DNA of 50,916 nucleotides from Mesotaenium endlicherianum (GCA_009602735.1 WELA01000805.1:745115-796030); one strand, 5' to 3'. Positions 5,641-50,916 are shown, counted from the first letter of the stretch. The notes: generated by a model not told the origin, from the sequence alone. Numbers and translations: made by a program.

Positions 5641-26197
<20,557 letters not shown>

Positions 26198-27974
26198 TGC
26201 GGTGGTGTTGGGGGTATATTGTTTTTGTGGGATGTAGGAATATCGTTTGGTAGTCATCAACTATGATGATGAGTCTTGGTGTATGTGAGCTCCCAAGGCG
26301 TCTGAGGCGGTCGAGATATTGTAAACAGGGGGCTCATTACAGCGAACTTACTCTATTGTAGTTACCCCGTGCAATTGCACAGGGTTGGAACAAAAGTGAC
26401 TGCAGATAATAAAGATGAAGGTACAGATCATGCTAATGGTTAAGATTACTCGCACATTGTCTCAAATTTTCCCTCGAAAAGCTTGTCAATAAGTGTAACT
26501 TGCTGGTGTCATGTGTACATGTGAGGTGAGTAGTAAGCGCTTCAATAAATTTGTAAATTTGTCCATTTGTGGGGAACAAACGTTTAGGTGAACATAGGGA
26601 AATTGTAGGGGGGTGACGGCTAAACAATGTTAGCAGCCGTGGCGTTTTTAAGTGCATCATATCTAAGCATCTTGGGTAATATTGTCCACTCAATGCTATG
26701 TCAATGTGTAAGACTCCCCATCTATAGTAAAAGGCCTATTGCTAATTAAAATGTATCAATGATTGATCCAAATGATGATGTGCAAGTAGTAAGCATTAAA
26801 AGGAGTAATCTTATTGAGTTTTTGCACATCCACATCGTACGGTTCCCCTCACGTAACGTTTATCAAGGGCGCGTCTCTGCCTCACCTCGTTGCTCCTAGA
26901 AAAATCTTGGATCAAGGTACTTTAAGGAAAAGTGCTTCTAGAGGAAAGCGCCTTTAAGAAATTTTGAAAGTTGTTCTTTTGATCGGGCAACTCACAAAAC
27001 GGAAGATTGCCATTGTGGGGCCTACTTTGCTTGCCATCCGCTTTTGGGGCCAGAGCATGCCCATGGGACGCTCTTGTGAGCGACCATGTAGCCACTAACG
27101 AAGCGCAAAAAACATTTTGTGAGAGAGCGTTTTGACGAAGGAGTGCGTGGAAGGAGAGGAAATTAGGAGGCGGCCAGCCATGGTTGGCCGCAAGGACAAA
27201 TCTTGGGGTCCGATGTTGTTGAACACTAGATATTCCACGATAACTCACACTTTTTGCTGCATCTACTACCTTCACTCTTGATTTATTTGTGATCACAGTA
27301 GTAGTCCAATCATGCAATGAAGCACAATTTTGAAAATCTGTCATCACAACTTTGCTGACCGGATGACTTTTTTAGAGTAAAAAATCGAAAAGAATGACAC
27401 CCAAACATTTATTGCTAACACTGCAAAACTTGGGTCTGTATAACTCTTGGGGCCTCAATTTTCAAGGCATGGGAATCTAGCCAGGGATATGTATGTGGGT
27501 AGTCACTACATGTGCAAAATTTGAGGCCTGTTGGAGAAGTACTCTGCCTTATGGAGCTCTTCGCAAAAATGCACCGCATATGACGCGCAAAAAAAACATG
27601 ATGCAACAAGCATTTCAATGGACACCTTCACATAGCATGACTTTATGAAATGCACACATATCACATGTATCTGAAACTCAGCATTACACATTTTTGTGTC
27701 CTTGGCTTGTCAATTTTTTTGATTTTGGTTTCAAATATACCTTAATTATCATAATTAGTCATCATTCAGGAACAAAGCAAACAATTAATGTATTTTTTGA
27801 AAACACAAAGACTAAAAGCGAATACAAACTGATGAACTCATTCATGTCATAAGCTTATGCATCTCACTCATCCCACTACAATTGTTTAGATCTCCTACCA
27901 GATTGCCTCAACTTCGTCGATTCTCGCCTACTTGTGTCTCTTAAGACCTCTTCTCCCTGAAAGGTCCTTTATCT

Positions 27975-30666: not shown

Positions 30667-32833
30667 AGGCGTACGCTATGAGATCGAGTGTGCATCATCG
30701 GTATACAACACATATCAAACAAGCAGACTTTGCTACAATATAGTCAAAATTACATGTGGCTTTATAGCCAAAAAAGGGAGTCAACCGTCGAATGTTTATA
30801 TTTATAAGTGTGTACTATCCAGAGCAAGCACCTCAAGACTGTATATTGGTAAAAGAACAATCACTGAAGTATGGTCCAAAAGATCACTAGAAGTCCATGG
30901 TCTGATCTTTGTAGAGTAGTCTCATGCAAGGATTTAAGCTGTGACTTTTCTCACCACTTGTGAAGTTCTTCAAGTGATTGGAAGCCAGAAGGGCTTGTTC
31001 TTCACAAGAGAGACTAGTGCACCTAAAAACACAAGAGATAGAAGTGTAAGTTTCACTGATAACTCTGTTACTTACAACTTGCCATGGTGCACTCTTAAAA
31101 AGATGTCACACTAGGTACATCTCTACTACTTTATACTCTTGGAAAATTGGCGTGCAATGCAGCGGATTCAATGCACGATGTCACTTTAGGAAGCTCTTAT
31201 ATGTCCACAAATGTGTGCAAGGCACGTACTAGCTCTTCTATAGGTGTCGTGCGTTACGAGGTCGGGTGCAAGGAGTGTGTACTCTCGAGAGTGAGCACCT
31301 CAAGATTGTGATCGGGTAGGAAAACAACTAATGAAGTATGGCCCAAAAGATCACTGGAAGCACATCATGATCTTCAAGAGTAGTCCTATGCAAGAGTTTA
31401 AGCTGTGACTTTGCTCACCACTTGTGAAGTTCTTCAAGTGACTGGAAGCCAGGAGGGCTTGCTCTTCACCAGAGAGAGACTAAGTGGTCCTGAAAACACG
31501 AGAGATAAAAATGTAAGCTTTACTGATGATCTCTGTCATTTACATTTGGCATGATGGACTTCTAAAGATATGGTTCTCTAGGGTGATCTCTAGTACTTAT
31601 ACTCCTGGAAACGCGGCGTCGTATGCGGCGGATCCAATGCATGTAGTCACTCTAGGAGGCTCTCTTATGTCCACTAATGTGTACAAGGCATGTACTAGCA
31701 CTCCTATAGGCTAAGCATAACTCAAACCAATCAAAGAAGCACGTAGAATATGCTACGTGTCTCTCATTGGTGGAGCTTACCTTGGGTGATTCTACCTAGA
31801 TAGCGCCTCAAAAGTGGATTTGGAACTTGAGGAAACTTCCTCAAGGAGTAGGTGATGCAGTCACCAAGTTATAGCCTCAATGATGCACTTATAATATGGA
31901 AATGTAAGACTTATATAGCCTAAGGGGCTCGCGGGTTTGTGCGCACAAAGCAAAGGGTCCTTAGGGTCACGAATAACGAACAATGTCACCTTTCGGTACA
32001 TTGAGTCACAAATTGGCCGTTGGGTGTAATTCCGCTAGGGGCCAAAAAAGGGTGCGGACTAGATCGCGCCTATCTTGCTCGATACTTGACCAAATGACGC
32101 GAAACCGGTGCCATTCGGAAGATGCTTCAACGCGCTACACATTAGTAACTTGGAAATCTAGAAAAGATCAACATATGGATGCGTAAAGTCAATGCAAAGT
32201 TGGTCTTCCTCGGTTGATGGTTCACACATGTGGAGCTCGATTTTGTACGCCAACCTCGACTTAATAAATCATGACATAGGCTAGGCATAACTCAAACCAA
32301 TCAAAATTAGATGCAATGAGTATGCTAAATGCTTCTCATTGGTGGAGCTTACCTTGATCAATGCTACCTAGATAAAGCCTCAAAAGTAAATTTGGAGGAA
32401 GCTTCCTCCAGGGTTAGGTGATGCAGTCACCAAGTTATAGCTCCTATGATGCACATTTATCATTGAAATGCAAAGATTATGTGGTCTAAGGAGCTTGCAA
32501 ATTTGTGTGCACAAAGCTAAGGGTCCTTGGGGTCACATATAGCCAACAATGTGACCTCTGGGGCTCAAGTTGGTCTCTGGTGACATTCCGCTAGGGGCCC
32601 TCTTGGTGGTGCAAACTAGATCGCGAATATCTCGTTCGATACTTGACCAAATGACGCGAAACCGGTGCCATTTGGGAGGTGACTCGACGCGCTACACTTT
32701 AGTGACTTGGAAATCTAGGGGAAAAAAACATATGGATACGTAAAGTCAAATGGAAGTTGGTCCTCCTTGGTTAATGGTTTATACTTGTGTAGCTTAGTTT
32801 TGTGCATCGACCTCGACTCAATAAATTATGACA
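30667..32833 (-). mobile_element. Short non-coding X+Y element, older copy (contains nested copy 31245-32276)
   Basis: The right end reads TGTCATAATTTATTGAGTCG on the minus strand. The left end aligns, with decay, to the CACGACA end of the family. Flanked by TTTT on both sides (30663-30666 and 32834-32837). Confidence 0.75.
31245..32276 (-). mobile_element. Short non-coding X+Y element nested in a copy of its own family
   Basis: Plus-strand ends TGTCGTG...CATGACA with a 4-bp TSD TAGG (31241-31244 and 32277-32280). Removing it rejoins the host copy. Confidence 0.88.
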
Positions 32834-33339
32834 TTTTTGTCTTCGCATATTGTAGCCAAAGAACACTTGATAAACAACGCCTTGGCTTTTTGGGCCTCAA
32901 TCCGCTTCTTGATCACTTCCTCTAATAACACTTCATCCCAATTAAGTGTCAGAATAACCAAAGTGTGCAGCGAGTATGAAAATTTTAGTTCTTAAAAGAG
33001 CGTCGAGAGAGCATTTTGCGACAGCCATGGCTAAAGAGAGCACGCAAAGAAGGAGGACTTTTGCATTCTTTTTCGATGACTTTCTCTATCGACACTTATT
33101 TTTGCATCGTACATATTTTAGTGTAACTTGTACGTAAGGATTCGGTTTGAATCGTTGATTTAATTCTGAACACATTGTAAAGTAGCTCATTATTGACTAA
33201 TTTCAACAAAAATAATTGAGTATATAGAGAAACATAATAGAGACAAAGAGGGCAAGTCATTGCATCAAAAAATGTGAGTTACATCATATAAGATGCACTC
33301 TAAAACCGGTTACTAGGAGATTGTCAATTCCGAACCAAA

Positions 33340-35449: not shown

Positions 35450-35610
35450 AAACGTTTCCGGTCACAATCTTTGCCTTTTGGCGTAGATATACCATTTTTG
35501 CATGTTGTTTCAGAGATCATGTTCTTCAATTTCCTCATGTAACGTAGAAAAAATTGTCTACGCCCTTGGCGGAGATGGGCGTAGATCCAATTCCTGGGGC
35601 GTTTTTCGGA
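35450..35610 (-). repeat. Dispersed repeat F, inverted copy
   Basis: Reverse complement aaaaacgccccaggaattggatctacgcccatctccgcc matches 36026 onward and 41086 onward. Confidence 0.75.
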
Positions 35611-36020
35611 GTTGGTTCATATTTTTGGCCAAACCGATTTCAGAGTGTGCTCTGGGCTATATAGTGCTACTAAACTTTGAATTTGCAACTCACGTGTAGA
35701 CGTTGGCAATATGTTCCAACTTAGGAAATTGTCGTGAGGTAAGAAGAGGAACAAACGAAGGCGTTGCGAGTGAAAAGCAATAGAAAAATGAGTATCAACA
35801 TATCACGCTCATATATCATATGTATTTACCAACTTCTTCACTCTAGAAGTGGTCCACGGTGCGACATATTTCAGGATCCCTACGATTTACTAGCAAGCGG
35901 TTGGGAAGTGCCCTAGGTCCTTAACATGATTCATCACGTTTTTTGGGACGCTCCCTAAATTGTAATATCAGGGTTCACAAAGTAGATTCGTTTGCATTCT
36001 GAAATTGGTTTGGGCCCGGA

Positions 36021-36860
36021 CGCCCAAAAACGCCCCAGAACTAGATCTCTCCCCATCTCCGTCCAAGGCTTATACGGATATTTTCTCCACTAACCCAGGC
36101 AAAGACGGAGAAAATGACATCTCCGCCACAGGCGGAGATGGTATTTCTACGCTCAATGGCAAATATTGTGTCTCTGAACAAATCTTCACCTTTGCCAAAA
36201 CTGTCAAAAAATGGCGAAGTATGGAAAGCCAATCCGAAAATGGTCACTTTCAAAAATGGTCATGGAAATTGACCACTTTGTTGTAAATGGTTAGTGCAAT
36301 TGGCCAAGTGTGCCAATAATGTTATTGTAGATCAATAAGTTAAAACAAATGAGAGGTTGACTCCCAATTTCACTTTGTTTGAGTTCGAGTCGTGGGGTGG
36401 CGGAAGTGATATGCACGTTTATTGGTCGAAAAATTGCGTAGTCGCACTGTGCATGGTCGCTCGTGGTCGCTCGGGCTCACGACAAATTAAGAATGGCCTG
36501 ATTGGCCCTAGCCTTTACGAGGAGCCCAAAGTCGACGGGTGGTAGGGGTACTTCTAACAAGCCTGTCCCCACTTGGCTTCCCCTCGCACCCCTGCTTCAT
36601 TCCTATTGGTCAACAATAGGTTGGTACCGAGGGGGGCTCTAACAAGCTCGTCCCCCTTGGCCCGGTCCCTTATATCAGCGCCGAGGGGGAGAAAGTCCTT
36701 GCCTCCCCCTTGCATGTGATTGGTCGAGGGCCGTAGGGTGTCCTTATTGCTGGTACACCCGTGGCCGCTCGAAAGATAATAAGTTATTTGTTTTCATGCG
36801 AGATGTGGGGAAGTGTGTCGTGGCCAAAAATCTGTTGCCACCAAGTCGCCCGCCGTGGCC
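36021..36860 (+). repeat. Dispersed repeat F (unclassified element end)
   Basis: cgcccaaaaacgccccagaact...ggcggagatggtatttc...aaaaatggtcatgg...tggtacacccg is collinear with 41081-41740. Confidence 0.7.
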
Positions 36861-36924: not shown

Positions 36925-38192
36925 TGTCATGATTTATTGAGTCGAGGGCGTCGCACGTACCCGTGCTTCAAGCGTGTGAGCGATCAACCTCGGACAAGCA
37001 TTTGCCTCTTTGAATTTGTGTGATTTAGTCTATTATGTTGCTATGCTTGCATGCCTAGGGTATAGATGCCACGTGACAAGTCAACACTTGACACATGCGC
37101 TAGACCTACTTTAGGCATCAGGTACAAGTCACCGCCCGCTTGGTCCCAAGTAGCAGCTCAAGCTACCCGGCACTTAGGAGACAGTGCCTAAGAAGGCCAC
37201 GTGGCACCACCGGAAGGTGGCGGGCTCCAGTTTTGGCCCATGTCCCCCTCTCTGCCCGTCATCAAGCAACAGGAGCCACCATGGGCCACGTGGAGCCACC
37301 GGAAGATGGCGGGCTTCACGACTTGGCCCGGGTACACTTACGTACCCGTCACTCGGGCCCAGGCACTCCTAAGTGCCCGACACTCAAATGGCGAGGCCAC
37401 CAAGGGCACCCAGGGCCACCGACCGACAGCTGCAGCCCGTCGGTTGGCCCATGCGCACCCGACCAAGATGTGCTCAGCCGACAGGAACCGTCACAGCCTG
37501 CAAGAGTACCACAGCTTAGCGGGCAACCGTCCGATTGCACAAACATAAGTGTGCAAGCTTGTCTTACAAGCTTAGCATGTGCTAAAGTGAGCTCGACCTA
37601 TCACACGCATTTAGCATATTCTAGCATCTCGCTTTTGATTGGATTGAGTAGTAACTAGCCTATTGGAGCGCAAGCACAATAGGTACATGTGTGTGCGTGT
37701 AGAGGTAGATCTTAGATGAAGACTACATGCATTGAATCTGCGCCTAACGCGCCGGGTTTCCAGGATTATAAGTGCTAGAGATGTCCCTAGAGAGACATCT
37801 TTTTAGAAGTCCCATTATGCCAGTTGTAAGTCAGAGAGATTATCAGTAAAGCTTACACTTTTATCTCTTGTGTTTTCAGGACCACTTAGTCTCTCTCTTG
37901 TGAAGAGCAAGTCTTGCTGGCTTCCAGTCACTTGAAGAACTCTACAAGTGGTGAGCAAAGTCACAACTTAAACCCCTGCCATAGGACTACTCTTGAAGAT
38001 CATGATGTGCTTCCAGTGATCTTTTGGGCCATACTTCATTAGTTGCATTCCTACCGATGAAAACATCCAACGCTTGCCTCCCTCTTTGGCTATAAAGCCA
38101 CATGTTTTGTAGACTTCATTGCAGCAAAGCCTGCTTGCTTATTATGCATTGCTTGTGTCGATAGTACGCACCCGACCTCCTACCGCACGACA
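36925..38192 (+). mobile_element. Short non-coding X+Y element (1268 bp)
   Basis: Ends TGTCATG...CACGACA with a 4-bp TSD TCGT (36921-36924 and 38193-38196). 36925-38057 is collinear with 45189-46388 (X) and 38058-38192 with 50646-50779 (Y). Confidence 0.92.
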
Positions 38193-39277: not shown

Positions 39278-40930
39278 TGTAAGCGGACGCAAAGTGGTTG
39301 TTGACTTTCAAAGTAATGAATATGTATATTAATAGATATCATAATCTAGTAATTGTAGTAGTTTATTGTGCTGAATTTTAGCCCGCTATACTTTTAGTAA
39401 TATTCAATATAATGACTCATCCGATAGCGGCAGGCTTAAGTCAACTTACGTCAGCTTGTTGACACATTCTTTGATAGCCAGCTGACCGCCTTAACCCGTA
39501 CTAGCGAATTGCCTAGTATTGCTTCTAAGTGTGATATGCAAGATAAATGGCCAAATGACGCCTTGGGCGGATGGCGATTCGAGATGATGGGAGATGGTTG
39601 TGGATTTGGTTAGCCGAGGTCCTATTGACGTGGTTAAGTCCTATCCAACTCCGGGTAGGTGGTACCATCGCAGTTGCCGTTGAAGAGTAAACTCATTCCA
39701 TGTACATATACTAGAATTGCTTTCGAGTTTGACATTCAGAAAACTCTTTGTAGAGACTACTGAGGGAACATCTGAATCCAAATCTGCAAGTCGTTATACA
39801 ATTTGCTTACTAATATTGCTTATGTATGAGTGAATTGATTGCATTATTGATACTCCTTACTTGCATTTGACTTGAAGAGATTACTTACGCTAGTTGTGTC
39901 TTCTTCTGCTATTTAATGAGTTACCAAAAAATACCACAAAAAATTACTTATTGATATAAAAATCTTGTATTAATCGTTAATTGATTATAAGTAAGTTGAT
40001 TCATTTCAATAGTATCGAAGCTCTTATCACAATTCTCTTTGTATGGTGACGATGCGGTCTTAAATTTGCAACTCTCAAAATATGGAGGGTCAGAATAATA
40101 GTAACATGGAAGGTCGGTCAAAGAAACGTGAAGAAGAAATGTGTACCTACGCTGAGGATATTGCGGCTAGAGAAGCTAGAGAAGTCGAGGAGACTGCGCA
40201 TCAGCCATAGCCGCAATAGCAGCCCAGCAGGCTAAGGAAGAACGTGTCTGAAGAAAAGCTGAGCGTTGAGCCATGGTAGAAGAGGACACGGAAGCAGAAG
40301 GAAGGTGTCTTGCTGACGCCATGACGATGGAAGAAATGATGGCTGAAAGGGCCAATCATTTAAATCCACCTCATGTTGTACCTGCTGATGTACCTCTTGC
40401 TCAAATTTGCAAGCAGCTGAGCGAAACGGGGATTGCTAATGCAACAGCAAGAGGAAATGCTGAAGCAGCTGCTGAGTGAGCCAATGTTGTTGCTGTTGCT
40501 GTTGCTAGGTTACCACCCCAAAATGTGGACACTGGTGCATTGTTCATTCAGATGTAGTTACAAATGAACAATAAATATGAGACCCAGCAAGATGATAAGA
40601 GGATGTTGATGACTATGCTGCAAGGGAGGAACCAATTGGATTCTTAAATTGATTGCAGGGCAATAGCCGAGGGCTTAGTAGGCCAAAGCCAAAGGCTCCT
40701 CGGGACTATAAAGATGAAAGAAACAAGAACAATTATTTGATCAAATTTCTTGGTGATGTTGGTTGGAGAATTATCCCGACTCGCAAAACTCTGAGAAGAT
40801 CAGGCAAAGTGGTGCTTTGCTGAAAGGTAGCGCAGCAGATTGGTGGCTCTTCTGGAAGGAAGAAAAGAAAATAAATCAACTTGATGATTCCATGTGGGAG
40901 GAGTTTGTGAAAAAGTTGCATGATAAGTCT
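39278..40930 (+). mobile_element. Truncated, decayed Ty3/gypsy-type LTR retrotransposon (5' LTR, PBS, gag fragment)
   Basis: Candidate LTR TGTAAG(39278)...TTTCA(40008), followed by TAGTATCGAAGC, a 9/12 match to the tRNA-iMet PBS TGGTATCAGAGC. Then a broken ORF with gag-like EKIRQSGALLKGSAADWW...MWEEFVKKLHDK. The LTR start is tentative. Confidence 0.65.
40082..40930 (+). pseudogene. Retrotransposon gag fragment
   Basis: E/A/R-rich coiled-coil-like start, then PKPKAPRDY and the L.G.A..WW...W..F capsid motif. Multiple stops and frameshifts. Confidence 0.7.
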
Positions 40931-41080
40931 TCAGCTGTCTCTGCAGTGTTGGCTTGCTTGAAATTGCCGCTCTTTTTCTTGATTTGAAAATTAAAGTTAA
41001 CGGCCTCAAGCCAAAAGATTTTTCTTCTTTCTCAGGCACCATTGGCATCTTGGAAAGTCTACTTGATTACTCTGAGCCAA

Positions 41081-41740
41081 ACGCCCAAAAACGCCCCAGA
41101 ACTGGATCTACGCCCATCTCCGCCCAGGACGTAGACGGTTTTTTCTTCCCTAAGCTAGGCAAAGGTGGAGAAATGGACATCTGCACGATAGGCGGAGATG
41201 GTATTTCATTGCTCAAAGGCACAGATGTTGTCTAGGAACAAATTTTCATCTGGACCAAAATAGTCGAAAAGTCTAAGTATGGCACAATGGCAAGCCTTTC
41301 AAAAAATGGTCATGGTCGTTTTCCAACTTCGTTTCCAAGAGTTAAGTTGCTGAACATATAATGTTATTGTGACCACGTAGTCCAAAAAACTTTGAAAAAA
41401 GAAGCAAAAGGTACAACTTGTCAATGGTCCGAGATTGGCCGACCACAGTCGACCGGCTAGTTACTTGGACGTGGCCCAAGTCGTGGGCTGGCGGAAATGG
41501 GATTGACAAATCCGTCCCCCCTTGTTTGTTCCCTTTTGGACTTTCTTGTCAGCGAGGGGGGGTCCTCGCTTGTCCTTGACCCCCTCCTTATCCATGATTG
41601 ATCGTCGGGCAAGCATGGTCGTCGTTGTTGGTACACCCGCGGCCATGTTGTCAGGTCGATATATTTAGTTGACGCAAATTTGCGTCATGAAATCACGTTA
41701 TTGTGTCGGCACGGCTTGCTTGCCGTGCCGTTCAACTCAG
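41081..41740 (+). repeat. Dispersed repeat F, second direct copy
   Basis: Collinear with 36021-36860; interrupted at 41741 by an X+Y element. Confidence 0.7.
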
Positions 41741-42290
41741 TGTCGTGCATTAGGAGGTCGAGTGCGCATCAGCAGCATAAGCAATACACAAATGGGCAAG
41801 TAGGCTTTGGTGCAATGGAAGCGGAAATGCATGTGGTCTTAAGGCCAAAAAGAGGGTCAACTGTTAAATGTTTTAAGGCTGTAATTTGGTAGGACAACAA
41901 TTAATGAAGTATGGCCCAAAAGATCATTGGAAGCACATCATGATCTTCAAGAGAAATCCCTTGGCAGAGGTTTAAGCTTTGACTTTGGTCACCACTTGTG
42001 AAGTTCTTCAAGTGACTGGAAGCAAAGAGGGCTTGCTTTTCACAAGAGAGATTCTAAATGATTCTGAAAATACGAGAGATAAAAGTGTAAGCTTTAATGA
42101 TACCTCTGCTACTTACAAATGCCATAATAAACTTTTATAAATTTGGCCTTCGAAGGGCATCTACTGCTATATACTCCCTGCAAAACCAGCGCTGAAGGCG
42201 GCGGATTCAATGCACACAGTCACAATGGGAGGCTCTCCTATGTCCACGAAAATAGAGGCAAGGCGCGTACTAGCTCTTCTATTGGCTAAA
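41741..42290 (-). mobile_element. Truncated X+Y element
   Basis: Starts with tgtcgtgcattaggaggtcg (the Y end) and continues through the block gaagtatggcccaaaagatca...caccacttgtgaagttcttcaagtgactggaagc shared by all copies. The other end was not found. Confidence 0.8.
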
Positions 42291-42857: not shown

Positions 42858-45188
42858 CGAAATGAATCTTGCCTTATTCAAGATATATATTTCATTTAAA
42901 TATACAAGATCAGAGCTATATAGAAGCATGTAATTGAGGGAGCAATCTTTGCCCTTACAATGAATTTCGTTTACTCACCTCTACCCCTTGACTCACTTAT
43001 CGTAGTGTGCCATAGTCTTACACTAACTCAAGGCATATGAAAAGTAGGAACTTGAGGACTAGAGCTTCTCCTCTAGAAAATCATGGCATTTTCCCTAACA
43101 AGCATACAAGCATGTATAAGCGCATACATAACATCAGAGGATTGAATAGCAAAGGCGTTCTCATTCAAATGACCATAATGTAGCTAAATCACATCTTACT
43201 GACAAAAATGAATCTTGCTTATTCACAATAAATATATTTCATTTAGGTATATAAGATCAACGATAGGTGGAAGCGTGTAAAATCAAGGAGCGATCTTTGC
43301 CCTTAGAATGAATTCCGTTTACTCATCTATTCCCCTTGACTCACTTACCGTAGTGTGCCATAGTTGCACACTAACACAAGGCACAAGAAAGAGGCGAGCT
43401 TGAGGACTAAAGCTTCTCCTTTAGAAACTCATGGCCTCTTGCCTACCAGGCATACAAGCATGTATAAGCACATACACAACACCAGGGGCTAAATAGCAAA
43501 GGCGCTCTCATTCAGATGACCATTATGTAGTTAAAACACATGCCACTGACTTAGGTGCAAAACTATGGAATCTGTTCGCTATGTGACCCCAAAATGTCAA
43601 AAAGGCATAACTCTGTCAATACTTCTCCAAATTGAGCACACTTAATGGAAATGGACGCATCTTGACAAGACCTTTTCAAAAAGTTCTAGTTCGCTCCATT
43701 TGCAGCACAGACAAAGACGCCATGTCAATTTCCGTGAAAGCTGGTCATAATAACGAACCCAAAAGTGCACACATCACTTGCAAGAAGAAAATTCGACTCT
43801 AAAGCCTCCTGTCCAGATTGAGGGACCACGAGATCCCAGCCTGCTATGTACCTAGTGACCACCTGCTTGACCACGGCGCAAGGTGCGCCGTTTCGTGGGA
43901 AACCCGTTATGTTGAGACCCACGGATCTAGGTATAACGACCATATTATTGGTCGGTTGACTGAAGTCCTAACTGTTCAGTTGATTGACAACGGCTCCGCT
44001 TACCCAGGAGTTAACCACACTGGTAGGACATCGGTTTACCAAATCTAGTCAACCTCCCGACTTTCAGTATACTACGATCACATGTGCCAATCTACAAATA
44101 ATAATACAAATGAATATATATATTCTCAGCGTACCGAAGCTAAGTATATTGACTAATATCAAACGAGCTTACTATATGTCAACCTACTGATATTATATCC
44201 TATACATATCTGATAAATAAATCTCAGCAAAGTATACTATGATACAAAAGTCATCCTGCTGACCTTTTCATCAAAGTCAGCAAACTACAATATGATACAA
44301 AAGTCATCCTGCTGACCTTTTTGACAAAGTAAGTAAATTCGCATTATATCGACATACATTCATTTAGATGAACTCGCACATGAAAGTATATTGACATAAT
44401 ACTTATTTAGTGCTGTATTTATACATGCAAATAATTAAATAAATAATGAACTGATTCATTACACTGACTTAGGTGCAAAACCATGGAATTTGTCCACTAT
44501 GTGACCTCGAGACATTAAAATAATAACTCAGTCAATACTTAACCAAATTGAGCACAATTAACAACAACGGCCGCGTCTCGACGGTGCTTCCAAATAGGTC
44601 TTGGTTGCTTAATTTGGTGCGCAGACGAAGACGCCATGTTCATTTAAGGAAAAGCTGGTCATAATAACGAACCAAAAATGCCGCACATGACTTGCAAGCA
44701 GAAATCCGATTGTAAAGCCTGTTGTCCGATATGAGGGACCACGAGCTCTCGGCCTGCTAGGTACCTAGTGACCACCTGGTTGACCACGCGTTAAGTTGGG
44801 ATCCACGGATCTAGGTGTAACGACCGTATAAATTGGTCGGTTGATCAAAGTCCTAATTGTTTAGTTGACTGACGACAACTTCGCCTTCCCAGGAATTGAC
44901 CACACTGGGAAGACATCGATTTACCGAATCTCAGTCGACCTCCCAACTTTCAGTATACTACGAATTGGTCACGTATGTCAATTTACATATAATTATCTAA
45001 ATGATGACATCTATCCTCCGCGTACTTAATCCAAGTGTACTGACTATTATTATGCGAGCTTACTATATATCAACGTACTAATGTTATATTTTATATATAT
45101 TGACAATCTGAGCAAACTTTACAATGATACAAAAGTCATCCCGCTGACCTTTTTCACAAAGTGAGCAAATTACACTATGAGACAAAAG
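42858..45188 (+). mobile_element. Family D solo-LTR-like element, outer copy (interrupted by 43204-44463 and again at 45189)
   Basis: 42858-43203 plus 44464-45188 is collinear with the inner copy. Contains 53-bp sub-repeats (gatacaaaagtcatcctgctgaccttttt). Confidence 0.65.
43204..44463 (+). mobile_element. Family D solo-LTR-like element, inner copy (1260 bp)
   Basis: Ends (aaa)AATGAATC...GATTCATTACA, with the first three bases of the left end degenerate. Flanked by CTGAC (43199-43203 and 44464-44468). Confidence 0.7.
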
Positions 45189-46487
45189 TGTCATGAATTA
45201 TTGAGTCGAAGTCGTTGCACGTACCCGAGCTACAAGCGTGTGAGCGATCAACCTCGAACGGGCACTTGCCTCTTTGCATTTGTGTGATTTAGTTTATTAA
45301 GTTGCTATGCTCGCATGCCTAGGGGATAGATGCCACGTGACAAGTCAACACTTGTCACGTGCGCCAGACCTACTAGACGCACCAGAGGTACGGGCCGAAT
45401 ACCCGTCCAAAACTGGACGGTGGCACTTGACTTTGTTTTCATAGCCACTACAGGCCGCAGGGACCCAAGCGACAGCCCGAAGCAAAGGCAACAAGGGTCG
45501 AGGAGGCCACGTGGAGCCATCGGAAGGTGGCGGGCTTCTGCGCTTGGCCCAGGCTCACCCGGCAGCCAGCCCGAGCACTTGATTGTGCTCGGCGCCAAGC
45601 GACGGGAGCCACCGAGGCCACGTGGCGCCACCGGAAGGTGGCGGGCACCTTAAGTGGCCCAAGGGCACTTAAATGCCCGTCACTCGAGCCCAGGCACTCC
45701 TAAGTGCCCGACACCCAAGTGGCGAGGCCACCAAGGGCACCCAGGGCCACCAACCGACAGCTGCAGCCCGTCGGTTGGCCCATGCGCACCCGACCAAGAT
45801 GTGCTCAGCCGACAGGAACCGTCACAGCCTGCAGGAGTACCACAACTTTGCGGGCAACCGTCCGATTGCACAAACATAAGTGTGCAAGCTTGTCTTACAA
45901 GCTTAGCATGTGCTAAAGTGAGCTCGACCTATCACAAGAATTTAGCATATTCTAGCATCTCGCTTTTGATTGGATTGAGTAGTAACTAGCTTATTGGAGC
46001 GCTAGCACGATAGGTATATGTGTGTGTATGCAAAGGTAGATCTTAGATGAAGACTACATGCATTGAATCCGCGCCTAACCCGCCGGTTTTCCTGGAGTAT
46101 AAGTACTAGAGATGTCCCTAGAGAGACATCTTTTTAGAAGTCCACATTATGCTAGTGGTAAGTCACAGAGATCACCAGTAAAGCTTACACTTTTATCTCT
46201 TGTGTTTTCAGGACCACTTAGTTTCTCTCTTGTGAAGAGCAAGCCTTGCTGGCTTCCAGTCACTTGAAGAACTTTACAAGTGGTGAGCAAAGTCACAGCT
46301 TAAAACCCTGCCATAGGACTACTCTTGAAGATCATGATGTGCTTCCAGTGATCTTTTAGGCCATACTTCATTAGTTGTATTCCTACCAATTTATAGTTTT
46401 GAGGTGCTCACTCTGGAGAGTACACACCCCTTACTCCTAAAAAGATCTCTCTTTGCTTCGCTTACAAGCATTTAGAATCTTCAGCGT

Positions 46488-49400
46488 ATGCCTACTCGTA
46501 GTGGGCTCACTTATCAGCCTTACAACGAAAGGGTTAGTGGGGAAGACTCAGACTCAGATCTCAGTGCCATCACTGAACCTTCTGAAGGGGATTATCAAGT
46601 GCCTCTTCAACCTGTAGCTGTCATTGAGCCACAGCCTCATTGGACTTACATTGATCTACAGAGCTCTATGGCTGGAGACCAAGATACGAAGGTAGATAGG
46701 GCCTCTCTCTTCCGTTTCAGCGGTAGGCCATGCACCTGTGATCTGGACGACACCATTTCTGAGTTCGAGGCTGACTTTGAGAACGCAAAGCTCAAGACTC
46801 CTACGCTCACCAAACGCCAGGTGTTTGGCACGCTTATGCGTTACTTTCTTCACGAGGCTCGCGACACCTACCATGAGAAGTCGGCTGAGATCTACGCACG
46901 CACAGAGCCCGTGGGGGACCCGCCAGTGGATACCCCCATATTTGATCTTGTCCAGGCCTTCTAGAACGTTCTCAGAGAGGAGTTTCAGTCTGCCACCGAA
47001 GAGAAGGTGTACGAGCTGCACCGCTTCTACCGCCGCAAGGATGAGACGATTCGCATGATGTACCGGCGCCTGACCCACCTACGACGAGATGTGGGCACTG
47101 TTACCGACCGGGAGGCTGTGGAGATCTTCTTGCGAGCCATCGATCCGCGTCTGAGGGAGAGGGCCATCGCTCCTCTCATTGATCGCGCCGGCGTCGACTA
47201 CACGCTGGAAGACGCCTGCAAAGCTGTAGAACGTCAAAGTCTGGCTGCCGCACGGAGCAACATCAGTGATCGTGTGGGCTTGGCATCCACTGGCATACGC
47301 CAGGAAGCACCGGTGTTGCCCTCCTCGACAGCACGCGTTGCTCCTGCCCGCCAGCATCAGCAACAGCAATCGCAACGCTCGCAGTTGCCAGCACAGACCC
47401 AGTCTCACAACGCGCCACGTGGCCGTATCTCCATGGCCGCAACGACGGGCGACCTTTGCTGGGCATGTGGAGAGACGGGCCACACACGTCGTGAGTGCAC
47501 TCTGGCGCAGAACGGCAAGCCAGGCGACTGCACCTACTGCGGCAAGGCAGGCCATTTGCAAGTCGTATGCTTGCAGAAGCAGCGCGACACGGAGGTTGGA
47601 CGCGCTCATGATGATCCTGCGCCCTCTTCAGGCCAGCAAGACATGCAAAACCCTCGCATAAGAGGACGCCCCACAATCACGGCAGCCACGGCTACGACAA
47701 ACGCCGCGTTGACCCCCAGGGAGGACATCTTCAACTATGACAATCTCAGCGATGCGCTAGCTGCGTCCGAGGCGGAGAACGCGCGACACCGCGCCCTATT
47801 CGCAGCCGACAGCTTCGACGCCTGCGGAGCCTTGAACGCGCACACACTCCCGGCCGACGCTGTGGCACTGACATCTGGCGACAACGCAGCACGTGCACGC
47901 ACGCCCAATGCCGACATCTGGCAGTCCCTGCGCCGGCCACATGCCGCAGCAGCAGTGTTGCAGCCATGCGCTCGTCCGCATTACGACAGAGCGCCTATGA
48001 CGACAGCTACGGCTACAACGAATGCCGCGCTAATCCCTGGGGCCGACTATTGCAGCTTTGACGACATTAGCGATGCGCTCGTGGAGGCCAATGCCGAGAT
48101 CGCGCGTCTACGAGGCCTCTGTGTCGCCGACAGCTATGATGCGTGCGCAGCGCAGTTCATGCACAATCCTTCGATCGACGTTACAAGGGTAACATCCGCT
48201 GGTGGCGCAACTCTTGCGTGCACTCCCAGCGCCGACATTAGGTAGCCAGAGTGCCTGCCAAGTTGTGTAGCAACAGCGTTGCAACCACGCTCATGTTCGC
48301 ATGACGACGAAGCGCCTACGACGGGAGCTGCAAGCGCCGACGGCGATGCGTCTACAGTCTCAACGCACCTCGCGCTGACACCTCTCAGCTGCGAGAGGGT
48401 ATGCGCCAACGCGTTGACAGATGGCAGACCCCAGGCCTGCGCAGCTCTGGAAGCCCACGCTGCACACGACCCCACTGACGGGTCGATGCTGCAGCTACGC
48501 GCACGTCCGCACGACGACGAAGCGCTCTCGACGAGGGCTGCATTCGCCGACAGTGACGCGTTTGCAGATCCATCGCGCCCGGCTCTGACAGCTATCAGCA
48601 GCAACAGGGCGGGCCTCGACAAGCTGACAGGTGGCAGGCCCTCGGCCTGTGCAATCCTGGCAGCCCACGCTGCACACGGCCCCGCTGACGGGTCAACGCA
48701 GCCGCCTCGCGCACGTCCGCACGACGACGGAGCGCCCATGACGAAGGCCGCAGGCACCGACATCGACGCCTATGCAGGCCCGCCTCGCCCCGCGCTGACA
48801 CCTGTCAGCAACGACACGGCGAGTACCAACAGGATAATCGGTGGCAGGCCCAAGGCCCGTGTAGTCCTGACAGTCGACGATGCGAGCGTACCCACTGACG
48901 GGTCCCCGCAGCAGCCAGCGCAGCCCGCAAAGGCGTCGACACACGCGCCCTTAGCGTTCGCTGCCCTGATGGAGCCAGCAGGGCTGCACAGCGCATGTGC
49001 AACGACAGGTGACGCCCTGACGCGGACCCGCCAGTCGGTCATTCCGGCTGCAGCTTCAGCAACCATGCGAGTTACGGGCGCGCGGACGTGCCCAGTGTTG
49101 CGGACGAGCACGCAGCCACGGGACAGCCGCCCGCTGCTGGCTGCTGCTAGCAACAGGTCCCAGCGGTCGCCGCCACGTATCGCGCACACGCTGGCCAAAG
49201 CGCCGACCTTCGGCAGTGGCATGGCCAGGCGCACACGCCCATCTATACCGACGCAACAAGTTGCTCAACGCACGTTCGGCAGCAGCGCAGTCGACACAGC
49301 TCCGACACCAGCTGCGCACAGCAATTGCGCACATGGCGCAACACCGGCAGCCAACGACGCGGACGGCTCCTATGTTGCCACGCGCCCTACCACAGCATCT

Positions 49401-50588
49401 CCAGCCTGGCACAGGTCTGGGACAAACCTGCCGCAGGACTGGCAGAAGTCTGGCAGAGGTTCAGGCCAAGTTGGGAGTAGGCTAGGCACAGGCCTGGCAG
49501 AGGTTCGACACAGGTCCGGCTCGCACCTGCTTGCAGCCGCCGCAACTACGCCCTCTCGTCGTTCCACGCACGCCTCGACCACCTTCGTCTGCCACGCACG
49601 CACGCTGCCACTTGGCAGGAGCGCAACAGCCGCCAAGGCACCACGCAAGCGTATGCTGCTGACAGCAGCCGGTCGGCCAGCAGCCTCACACAAGAGAAAT
49701 GGGCCTGACTAGGGACGCCGCACAGAGGAGGCACCACGTCTTCCGCGTTCCTTCCGCGTGCTCGAGCCGCCGCCAGCGCCTGTTGCTCTCGCGCCTCACG
49801 CGCTCGCCTCGCCTATGACGATGGTGCAGCTGAACGCTGAAGTCATCTCCCTGGCCTTGCACCGCATGATAGCGGTCTCCTTCGCAGACCTTGGAGTAAC
49901 GCTGGAGGCGACGAGGCAGGCAGCTCAGCTGCTGCTGCAACCTCGCGGTGCCGGTCTACACACCGCCGCGGGCAAGCCAGCGTCCGACGCCGCAGCCGCG
50001 GTGCTCTCTGCACCCGCGCGATCTGCGCATGAGCGCAGGATGATAAGCAATCCTAACGCTGCCTTTTTGGATAACGCGCAGGGGATCGTGCTCGTCAACA
50101 CTCAGGCTCCGCAGCGGATCATGTTCGACATGGGCGCGCAGCCGGTCCTCATTAGCCTCAGCTACTTCCGACGGCTGGGCCTTTCTTCGAACGACTTGGA
50201 GGATTTGCCGACGCGGATCAACACGGCAGCTGGCACCTCCGAGTTCGTGACCGGGCGCACACGACTGGCGCTTCGCTTCACCTTCAGGCCAGGGACAGCG
50301 GACGAGACAACCATCCATCGGCACGCCCTCGTGACTCGCTCTGAGACCTTTGACGTCCTCTTGGGACAGGAGGTGCTCTTTCCCATCGGCGCCGCGGTTG
50401 ACAACTGGACCGAGCGCGTCCAGTATCGGCCCGACTGGCGTTCAAGAGGAACCCGCACGACTTCTTTGCCGCTTGACATCGTGGACCGACGTCCGACCAT
50501 GACCACTCTCTACGGCTTCCACGTCGGCTGCCCAAACCTACAACTGGCGCACGTGCCAGCTGAGACTGGTTCTGTCGCAAGTGCTTAG
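46488..50588 (+). pseudogene. Gag (two CCHC zinc knuckles) fused to a retropepsin-type aspartic protease; no RT, RNase H or integrase
   Basis: Four ORF-track entries lie in one frame, separated by single TAG codons (46962, 48243, 49710). Motifs: gag-like F.NVLREEF...ETIRMMYRRL; CWACGETGHTRREC (47457); CTYCGKAGHLQVVC (47529); protease IMFDMGAQPVLIS...FDVLLGQEVL (D at 50127). Confidence 0.9.
47670..48920 (+). repeat. In-frame tandem repeats within the gag-PR ORF (2 x 321 bp, then 3 x 210 bp)
   Basis: TATTNAAL recurs at 47688 and 48009. HDD(E/G)A recurs at 48300, 48510 and 48720. Confidence 0.85.
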
Positions 50589-50627
50589 CGTTAGCACTAG
50601 GCAGCAAGAGCTCATCAGCTGGAGGCT

Positions 50628-50643
50628 GAGAGCTGGGGGGGGG
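50628..50643 (+). other. Polypurine tract (plus-strand primer) candidate
   Basis: gagagct followed by G9, then AT and TGAAAC, directly downstream of the ORF. Confidence 0.7.
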
Positions 50644-50841
50644 ATTGAAACATCCAACACTTGCCTCCCTTTTTGGCTATAAAGCCCCATGTATTGTAGA
50701 CTTCATTATAGAAAAGCCTGCTTGCTTATTATGCATTGCTTGTGTCGATAGTACGCACCCGACCTCCTATTGCACGACAGCTGTCATGAGTTATTGAGTC
50801 GAAGTCGTTGCACGTACCCGAGCTACAAGCGTGTGAGCAAT

Positions 50842-50916
50842 TGTAATGAATCAGTATATTAGTAGATATAATATTCATTTAAATATAATAGTTAATTTAG
50901 TTCACCCTGCTGAACT
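50842..50916 (+). mobile_element. Left end of a family D-related element inserted in the second X repeat
   Basis: Begins TGTAATGAATCAG, the reverse complement of the D end at 44451-44463, and shares ttcatttaaatata with about 42890. X homology stops exactly here. Confidence 0.65.

What the first reader, a model, noticed from the sequence alone, without database searches (positions are those of the whole stretch)
45189..50841. Candidate new retroelement architecture: a protease/PPT-type element with a split, circularly permuted LTR and internal integration ends
Seen in the sequence: the element reads X (about 1.28 kb) - gag - protease - PPT - Y (134 bp) - GC - X again. The sequence after the PPT (TGAAAC..., Y) is not the sequence at the 5' end (TGTCATG..., X). 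Related copies begin at the X start and finish at the Y end (CACGACA), three of them with 4-bp TSDs (TTTT, TAGG, TCGT). Established: in ordinary LTR retrotransposons the sequence after the PPT equals the 5' end. An A-ORF-B-A-B split direct repeat layout is known from tyrosine-recombinase elements (PAT, TOC1, Ngaro), which typically make no TSD and lack a protease. Inference: the reverse-transcription LTR is Y-gc-X, but integration uses an att-like site inside it, as if a 2-LTR circle were opened at CA-GC-TG by a DDE integrase. That would give X-ORF-Y-X-Y. I do not know a described family with this combination but cannot exclude one.
Basis: partly seen in the sequence, partly recalled or inferred. 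Interest (0 to 1): 0.9.

Follow-up and report, generated by a model that had tools for sequence, protein, structure and literature searches.

The report
Gypsy retrotransposon integrating via internal palindrome
This is a broken, helper-dependent copy of a plant/algal jumping-gene family whose inserted copies start and stop at a short palindrome in the middle of their end repeat, which likely means the integrase cuts there and the ends made by reverse transcription are joined to each other, unlike in well-studied LTR elements.

Summary
The layout is X-gag-protease-PPT-Y-GC-X. Solo X|Y copies carry 4-bp duplications, and other genomic copies show both junction types.

The gag and protease match DNMT-bearing Ty3/Gypsy elements with RT, RNase H and a DDE integrase and no tyrosine recombinase. 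A distant autonomous family from metagenome contigs has the same A-ORF-B-A-B layout, the same CACGACA-GC-TGTCATG site and 4-bp duplications.

New here: (1) a Tf1-like self-priming hairpin replaces a tRNA primer site in both families; (2) only the left-hand palindrome is used (14 of 20 3' ends read B-A; 0 of 12 5' ends carry B), so a circle opened at random is excluded.

The layout is not new in print. One 2018 figure legend notes DIRS-like repeats on Klebsormidium KnitGypsy-Dnmt3, without mechanism. This scan also found the kind before in other genomes. Whether a closed circle is the substrate is untested, and this copy's right end lies outside the window.

The parts
45185..45188 (+). Left target flank AAAG (predicted 4-bp duplication); lies in register with an empty paralogous site at 44301-44304
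45189..46433 (+). X1 (repeat A1): left integration end TGTCATG; inferred rest of U3, R and U5; ends where the primer-binding site begins
   Evidence: X end from joints and loose ends behind 46433
46098..46103 (+). TATA-like box (TATAAG), 30 nt upstream of the self-complementary segment
   Evidence: function inferred
46128..46140 (+). Putative 5' end of the RNA and self-primer (ATCTTTTTAGAAG), complementary to 46434-46446
   Evidence: (11/12, 0 of 300 shuffles); start site not shown by RNA
46434..46446 (+). Putative self-priming primer-binding site directly after X1; 12/13 complementary here, 13/13 with the C>T read at 46436 in all 27 contigs covering it
46488..50588 (+). Single gag-protease frame (about 1366 codons) with TAG stops at 46962, 48243 and 49710, where most other copies read sense codons; no DNMT, RT, RNase H or integrase
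47457..47501 (+). CCHC zinc knuckle of gag (PF00098)
47676..48909 (+). In-frame internal repeats (2 x about 321 bp, 3 x 210 bp) in the spacer between gag and protease
50094..50372 (+). Aspartic protease domain (PF13650); catalytic motif reads DMG here, DTG/DSG in many relatives
50635..50643 (+). Polypurine tract (G9 at the end of a purine-rich stretch)
50644..50779 (+). Y1 (repeat B1): inferred first part of U3; starts AT directly after the PPT and ends CACGACA
50773..50788 (+). Internal att-like near-palindrome CACGACA-GC-TGTCATG; the GC is absent from integrated ends
50782..50841 (+). X2 (repeat A2), first 60 bp, 58/60 identical to X1
50842..50916 (+). Left end of an unrelated high-copy element D that interrupts X2
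   Evidence: 92, 114 and 94 contigs with unlike sequence before 50842
36925..38192 (+). Solo X|Y copy with TCGT duplication; about 45 bp lost on the X side of the junction
31245..32276 (-). Solo X|Y copy with TAGG duplication, nested in another solo; about 105 bp lost on the Y side of the junction
30667..32833 (-). Older solo X|Y copy (interrupted by the nested one) with TTTT duplication and a decayed Y end
41741..42289 (-). Partial X|Y copy: Y end and the last part of X; its X start is not in the window

Best explanation
This is a dead, non-autonomous gag-protease copy of a Ty3/Gypsy lineage whose inserted copies begin and end at a palindrome inside the repeat, likely because a DDE integrase supplied in trans cuts the cDNA there while the ends made by reverse transcription are joined to each other. 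SHOWN: the layout X-ORF-PPT-Y-GC-X; integrated ends TGTCATG and CACGACA with 4-bp duplications; X|Y junctions that join the primer-site border to the PPT border; relatives with PR-DNMT-RT-RNase H-integrase and the same 16-bp site. INFERRED: (1) RNA starts about 30 nt after the TATA box in X1, and its first 11-13 nt pair with the site behind X1 and prime the minus strand, as in Tf1. (2) The PPT primes the plus strand, giving a cDNA with LTR = Y-GC-X at both ends. (3) Integrase nicks both strands 3' of CA at the LEFT palindrome and joins them to target with a 4-bp stagger; the GC is lost in repair. (4) The free U5 and U3 ends are ligated, mostly flush and sometimes with small indels, either before (2-LTR circle, my odds about 0.45) or after strand transfer (about 0.30), giving X-ORF-Y-GC-X|Y. 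(5) The left site is probably used because the left LTR becomes double-stranded first during reverse transcription (untested). (6) X1/X2 recombination leaves the solo X|Y copies; A-ORF-B copies arise from B1/B2 recombination or from 1-LTR circles.
For: Window: layout and solos; left flank in register with an empty site, so no Y was lost in front of X1. Other copies in the same species: joints 46427>50643, 46427>50648 and 46432>50664; 10 contigs with loose letters before 45189 whose consensus matches Y-end+GC at 22/30, agreement 0.5; RNA reads in 3 studies (8, 17 and 11 reads) running from 46433 into a Y start; a 3470-bp contig of another sample spanning ORF-PPT-Y. Relatives: the protease's hits carry a C5 DNMT downstream, one full protein has RT, RNase H and rve, and none of the 46 proteins lists PF00589. 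Gag and protease both hit the split-repeat loci (protease E 1e-14 to 1e-26 for most; ordinary-LTR loci about 1e-4). Of 80 metagenome loci, 26 (23 distinct) hold this family's repeats: 3' side B-A-B in 11, B-A then cut off in 3, B alone in 5, B truncated in 1 (of 20); 5' side without B in 12 of 12. Duplications in the 6 copies with both ends: 3 exact, 2 with one mismatch, 1 with two. B starts AT after a G-rich run in 17 of 17 examined. The best complement of the primer site lies 30-34 nt after the TATA box in the window and in 11 of 12 relatives; the 3 ordinary-LTR controls lack this, and two show TGGTATCAGA. All split-repeat loci form one RT clade (SH-aLRT 100) inside the DNMT group (88), apart from the ordinary-LTR loci (quick tree).
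Against: This copy's own right end is unread. No autonomous element of this species was recovered (searches found nothing); only 12-14 contigs that share the last 35 bp, PPT and Y but differ upstream hint at one. RNA is sparse (33, 71 and 126 reads, mostly 88-95% alike): it shows no start-site pile-up, almost no gag cover and no read through Y-GC-X. Reads lie upstream of the proposed start, and 3, 10 and 26 reads look spliced into 46212, which would remove the TATA box and primer. The self-priming match alone is not above shuffles in 5 of 12 relatives (16-103 of 300). The relatives are one decayed family, so they count as one independent case. A-ORF-B copies do not prove circles. No intermediate or enzyme activity was observed. 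The RT tree was the quick one, not the careful one.
Confidence: 0.76

Rival explanations
1. Plain 2-LTR circle opened at either palindrome with equal chance.
For: X|Y junctions look like end-to-end ligation of a linear cDNA. Foamy-virus integrase is reported to cleave a palindrome at 2-LTR junctions (PMC1180852, abstract).
Against: It predicts A-B-A-ORF-B about as often as A-ORF-B-A-B. Seen: B-A at 14 of 20 3' ends, and B before the first A in 0 of 12.
Confidence: 0.05
2. The unit moves as a cut-and-paste DNA element with 7-bp inverted ends (Ginger-like, recalled), and Y-GC-X is an abutted-end junction from a tandem or circular DNA intermediate; the retro features are relics.
For: TG..CA ends with a 7-bp imperfect inverted repeat and 4-bp duplications. 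A 2-bp spacer between abutted ends is like IS30/IS21 junctions (recalled).
Against: It does not explain why the internal X|Y junction falls on the primer-site and PPT borders, why relatives keep RT and RNase H, or the kept hairpin and PPT.
Confidence: 0.08
3. An ordinary LTR element rearranged by nesting, tandem insertion, deletion or mis-assembly at this one locus.
For: The region is a nest of repeats, the assembly is gapped (9 N runs), and no listed piece spans the locus.
Against: Both junction types recur in other copies and samples; the ORF block has no flanking duplication; the left flank matches an empty site; a distant family shows the same layout and site in 11 distinct loci.
Confidence: 0.06
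4. A PAT/Ngaro-like element integrated by a tyrosine recombinase supplied in trans.
For: Same A1-B1-A2-B2 layout (PMC4157794 and PMC3783388, passages).
Against: Variable 4-bp duplications and a protease; relatives carry rve with D-D(35)-E and a PHD running up to the PPT; no PF00589 in the 46 proteins or in six frames of L017's leader.
Confidence: 0.04

Closest known systems
KnitGypsy-Dnmt3 of Klebsormidium nitens (de Mendoza et al. 2018, PMC5890265; I read passages, section 9 with the Fig. 4 legend, and supplement hits; the figure itself is not held)
   Same: Gypsy domains with DIRS-like repeats, given in the paper as A-coding-B-A-B; DNMT inside pol, as in this element's closest relatives.
   Different: This copy has only gag-protease. 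In what I read the paper gives no termini, duplication, palindrome, priming or mechanism. K. nitens sequence was not compared directly.
Ty3/Gypsy (Metaviridae) LTR retrotransposons (PMC6317226, passages)
   Same: gag-CCHC, aspartic protease, PPT, TG..CA integrated ends, 4-bp duplication; relatives have the order PR-RT-RH-IN.
   Different: The sequence after the PPT is not the 5' end; integration ends lie inside the RT-defined LTR; the U5 and U3 ends are fused inside the element.
Tf1/Sushi and Tcn1 self-priming chromoviruses (PMC7175516 and PMC6317226, passages)
   Same: No tRNA primer site; the 11-13 nt just past the TATA-predicted start are complementary to the site behind the 5' repeat.
   Different: Those elements have ordinary LTRs (recalled); relatives here carry PHD and DNMT. 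Kinship was not tested.
PAT, TOC, Kangaroo, Ngaro and VIPER tyrosine-recombinase elements (PMC4157794, PMC3783388, passages)
   Same: Split direct repeats A1-B1-A2-B2; solo A|B remnants (TOC1, recalled).
   Different: They integrate by tyrosine recombinase and, per PMC3783388, lack aspartic protease and DDE integrase; here both are present in the lineage and targets are duplicated.
Integrase cleavage of 2-LTR circle junctions in foamy virus (PMC1180852, abstract only)
   Same: A DDE integrase cutting an internal palindrome formed by two att ends.
   Different: There the palindrome is the ligated U5-U3 junction and the product is a normal provirus; here it is a templated site inside U3, separate from the U5|U3 junction.

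Membership tests
Ty3/Gypsy LTR retrotransposon | gag with CCHC knuckle and aspartic protease | tested here: met
   capsid domain itself not detected by Pfam, but the gag region matches relatives at E down to 3e-19
Ty3/Gypsy LTR retrotransposon | pol order PR-RT-RNase H-DDE integrase | tested here: inconclusive
   absent from this copy; met in relatives P0083, P0160, P0162 and loci L010-L058
Ty3/Gypsy LTR retrotransposon | two identical LTRs at the termini; sequence after the PPT equals the 5' end | tested here: not met
Ty3/Gypsy LTR retrotransposon | TG..CA ends and 4-6 bp target duplication | tested here: met
   3 solos in the window; 3 exact and 2 near-exact of 6 relatives; this copy's right end unread
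Ty3/Gypsy LTR retrotransposon | primer-binding site and PPT | tested here: met
   PPT; no tRNA-type site, self-complementary site instead
KnitGypsy-Dnmt3-like split-repeat Gypsy | A-ORF-B-A-B repeats | tested here: inconclusive
   A-ORF-B-A seen, second B outside the window; A|B junction seen in other copies; complete in relatives
KnitGypsy-Dnmt3-like split-repeat Gypsy | DNMT inside pol | tested here: not met
   the frame ends after the protease; DNMT present in 14 of 38 scanned protease hits
KnitGypsy-Dnmt3-like split-repeat Gypsy | same clade as the K. nitens element | not testable with these tools
   no named K. nitens sequence was obtained, and this copy has no RT
PAT/Ngaro/VIPER (YR, split repeats) | tyrosine recombinase | tested here: not met
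PAT/Ngaro/VIPER (YR, split repeats) | no DDE integrase or variable target duplication | tested here: not met
Tf1-type self-priming elements | first about 11 nt of the RNA complementary to the primer-binding site | tested here: inconclusive
   complementarity and TATA spacing met; the RNA 5' end is not mapped

The most novel reading that the evidence does not exclude
A whole Gypsy lineage of streptophyte algae and bryophytes has moved its att site inside U3 and uses a covalently closed 2-LTR circle as its obligatory integration precursor: the DDE integrase acts as a site-specific endonuclease on a 16-bp palindrome that is conserved across the lineage, and the RNA primes itself. This is convergence on the DIRS/Ngaro layout with a different enzyme.
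Probability: 0.45. Interest if true: 0.88.

Novelty: new variant of a known kind. Interest (0 to 1): 0.68.

Why it matters
All well-studied LTR elements integrate by the ends of linear cDNA, and circles count as dead ends; the early proposal that circles are precursors was dropped for retroviruses (recalled). This lineage gives a natural case in which integrase appears to cut an internal site as its normal route, with a defined 16-bp substrate that can be tested in vitro. It links Gypsy and DIRS/Ngaro architectures by convergence. It also means that LTR finders, which require two terminal LTRs (PMC6317226, methods passage), would miss the lineage in algal and bryophyte genomes.

Tried and rejected
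No whole genome is held, so no genome-wide census. Word-based protein searches with the protease (longer proteins) and with the gag region gave nothing, which is weak evidence. A viral-contig scan with P0153 gave nothing. The protease alignment was too variable to scan with. No tRNA genes in the window. No RNA holder was listed among indexed runs. The RNA lay gave no start or end pile-up. No DNA similarity between X/Y and the related family beyond the palindrome.

Rejected: the ORF block as a separate insertion (no flanking duplication; its borders are the primer site and PPT); Y starting at TG 50646 (junctions keep the AT); A-ORF-B copies as proof of 1-LTR circles (B1/B2 recombination gives the same); a shared target preference from the 10-bp flank likeness at 32834-32854 (one case only).

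The six-frame Pfam scan covered only L017's leader and integrase tail, not whole elements. Paper searches for a description of the mechanism found only PMC5890265 for the layout; subscription journals, Repbase and Dfam were not searchable, and Supplementary Figs 13-14 of that paper were not seen as figures. Look-ups of earlier findings by place and by sequence were empty.
Full report
Setting. The window is eukaryotic. An intron-rich, GC-rich helicase gene (Helicase_C) fills the first 26 kb, and a nest of repeats the rest. No genome is held. Named protease relatives come from Closterium and the liverwort Calypogeia, so a streptophyte alga is likely; the organism was not identified.

Observation. 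The layout is real. X1 begins TGTCATG at 45189. One frame runs 46488-50588 with three TAG stops and has a CCHC knuckle and an aspartic protease. Most other copies read sense codons at those stops, so the family frame is gag-protease and this copy is decayed. The frame is followed by a G9 tract, Y (50644-50779), GC and 60 bp of X (58/60 identical). A high-copy element D then interrupts (92-114 contigs with unlike sequence before 50842). Three solo copies run from the X start to the Y end with 4-bp duplications (TCGT, TAGG and a weak TTTT); chance per pair is 0.0043. The left flank is in register with an empty paralogous site up to AAAG, so no Y was lost in front of X1.

Other copies in the same species. 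Contigs join X to Y at 46427>50643, 46427>50648 and 46432>50664. RNA reads from three studies leave the reference at 46433 and continue with a Y start beginning AT (8, 17 and 11 reads). Ten contigs have loose letters before 45189; their consensus matches Y-end+GC at 22 of 30 places with agreement 0.5, so part carry the Y-GC-X junction and part other flanks; one of them may be this locus's own junction. Twelve to fourteen contigs share the last 35 bp, PPT and Y but differ upstream, which may be the autonomous partner.

Relatives. phmmer with the protease gave 176 hits. Of 38 longer hits scanned, 14 carry a C5 DNA methyltransferase and one (P0083) reads gag-PR-DNMT-RT-RNase H-integrase. None of the 46 proteins found with its pol lists a tyrosine recombinase. 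A metagenome scan gave 80 loci; 26 of them (23 distinct) hold one family of repeats. Of 20 readable 3' sides, 11 are B-A-B, 3 are B-A then cut off, 5 are B alone and 1 is a truncated B. Of 12 readable 5' sides, all start TGTCATG and none has B within 1.5 kb upstream. Of 6 copies with both ends, 3 have exact 4-bp duplications, 2 differ at one base and 1 at two. Their B1-A2 junction has the consensus CACGACA-GC-TGTCATG, identical to the window's, although X and Y show no other DNA likeness to that family. The integrase has D-D(35)-E in P0153 and is decayed in the loci; in L017 it runs through a PHD finger to the PPT. The window's gag and protease both match these loci far better than ordinary-LTR loci. 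In a quick RT tree these loci form one clade (support 100) within the DNMT group (88), apart from the ordinary-LTR controls.

What the borders mean. B starts with AT directly after a G-rich tract in 17 of 17 loci examined and in the window. A ends where a 12-13 nt segment begins that is complementary to a site 30-34 nt after a TATA box inside A. In the window this is 11/12 (0 of 300 shuffles) and 13/13 with the variant read in all 27 contigs at 46436; the best match lies at that spacing in 11 of 12 relatives, though 5 of the 12 are not above shuffles on score alone. Folding pairs the two segments in the window and in the 5 relatives folded, which were chosen among the better matches. Three ordinary-LTR controls lack it, and two show a TGGTATCAGA tRNA-type site. 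This is the geometry of Tf1 self-priming (PMC7175516, passages). So the reverse-transcription LTR is inferred to be B-GC-A, and the A2|B2 junction is the fused U5 and U3 ends: about half of 11 junctions are flush and the rest have 1-3 bp indels or a short filler, and three of the four solos in the window have larger losses.

Mechanism. The ends, the variable 4-bp duplication and the lost dinucleotide are what a DDE integrase leaves (established knowledge), here at a templated site inside U3. A 2-LTR circle has two such sites, yet only the product of cutting the left one is seen (14 of 20 against 0 of 12). I infer a timing bias, since the left LTR is duplexed first after the second strand transfer, or capture near the U3 end; neither is tested. 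Sequence cannot tell whether the U5 and U3 ends are ligated before integration (circle) or after it. A-ORF-B copies fit 1-LTR circles or B1/B2 recombination equally.

Results against. The right end of this copy is unread. RNA is thin (33, 71 and 126 reads, mostly from diverged copies), shows no start site and almost no gag, extends upstream of the proposed start, and includes reads that look spliced into 46212, which would remove the TATA box and primer; these may be read-through of a solo copy. The relatives are one decayed family. No autonomous element of this species was found.

What is known. De Mendoza et al. 2018 (PMC5890265; passages, section 9 and supplement hits) state in the Fig. 4c legend that KnitGypsy-Dnmt3 has the repeat structure of a DIRS element with Gypsy domains. 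In what I read they give no ends, duplication or mechanism. The name occurs in that paper only, and eight further searches found no account of the mechanism in the held library. YR elements share the layout but lack protease and DDE integrase (PMC3783388 and PMC4157794, passages). Foamy-virus integrase cleaves circle-junction palindromes (PMC1180852, abstract). Three earlier notes of this scan on other genomes reach a similar reading; I had the paper and the reading before seeing them, and they are not independent support.

Verdict. A real, non-autonomous member of a barely described split-repeat Gypsy lineage: a new variant of a known kind, not categorically new. The added value is the conserved att palindrome, the self-priming geometry and the left-site asymmetry, which make the integration route directly testable. 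Interest 0.68.

Noticed in passing
window 45918-46211 (donor equivalent in the nested copy near 31780): RNA reads in three studies (3, 10 and 26 reads) appear spliced from a GT donor in X to the AG at 46210-46211; the intron would contain the TATA box and the proposed self-primer. Probably read-through of a diverged solo copy.
   Followed up: partly
window 43547-44463 and 44465-45188: Two tandem units of about 917 bp (76% alike), each starting TGAC; the first ends in the reverse complement of element D's first 14 bp, with one base between the units. The main element sits in the second unit. D may have short inverted ends.
   Followed up: partly
window 31241-32280: A solo X|Y copy inserted into another copy of its own family in the same orientation.
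   Followed up: yes
window about 8000-26200, + strand: Intron-rich DExH-box RNA helicase gene (Helicase_C hit; DEAH-type motifs in several exons) with long poly-G and CT tracts and N gaps in introns.
   Followed up: partly
window 35463-35613, 36020-36224, 41080-41282: Related inverted and direct subterminal-like repeats of another decayed element family, probably DNA transposons.
   Followed up: no
window about 40100-40930: Decayed gag-like reading frame of another retroelement; no Pfam hit in the one frame scanned.
   Followed up: partly
protein P0107: A Copia-type rve and RVT_2 polyprotein followed in frame by this lineage's protease and DNMT: a nested insertion or a fusion.
   Followed up: no
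L006, L007, L021, L032, L060: Copies of the related family that read A-ORF-B with no repeat at all, two with both ends visible (TTTT/TTTT and AGAT/AGAC); invisible to LTR finders.
   Followed up: yes
L012:8851-8988 and 14461-14753: The second B is missing after A2, and an inverted B lies upstream of pol: a probable inversion at the A|B junction.
   Followed up: no
att sites of L002-L072 and window 50773-50788: The palindrome contains CG and CHG contexts, and the autonomous relatives encode a cytosine methyltransferase; whether methylation marks one att site is an untested idea.
   Followed up: no
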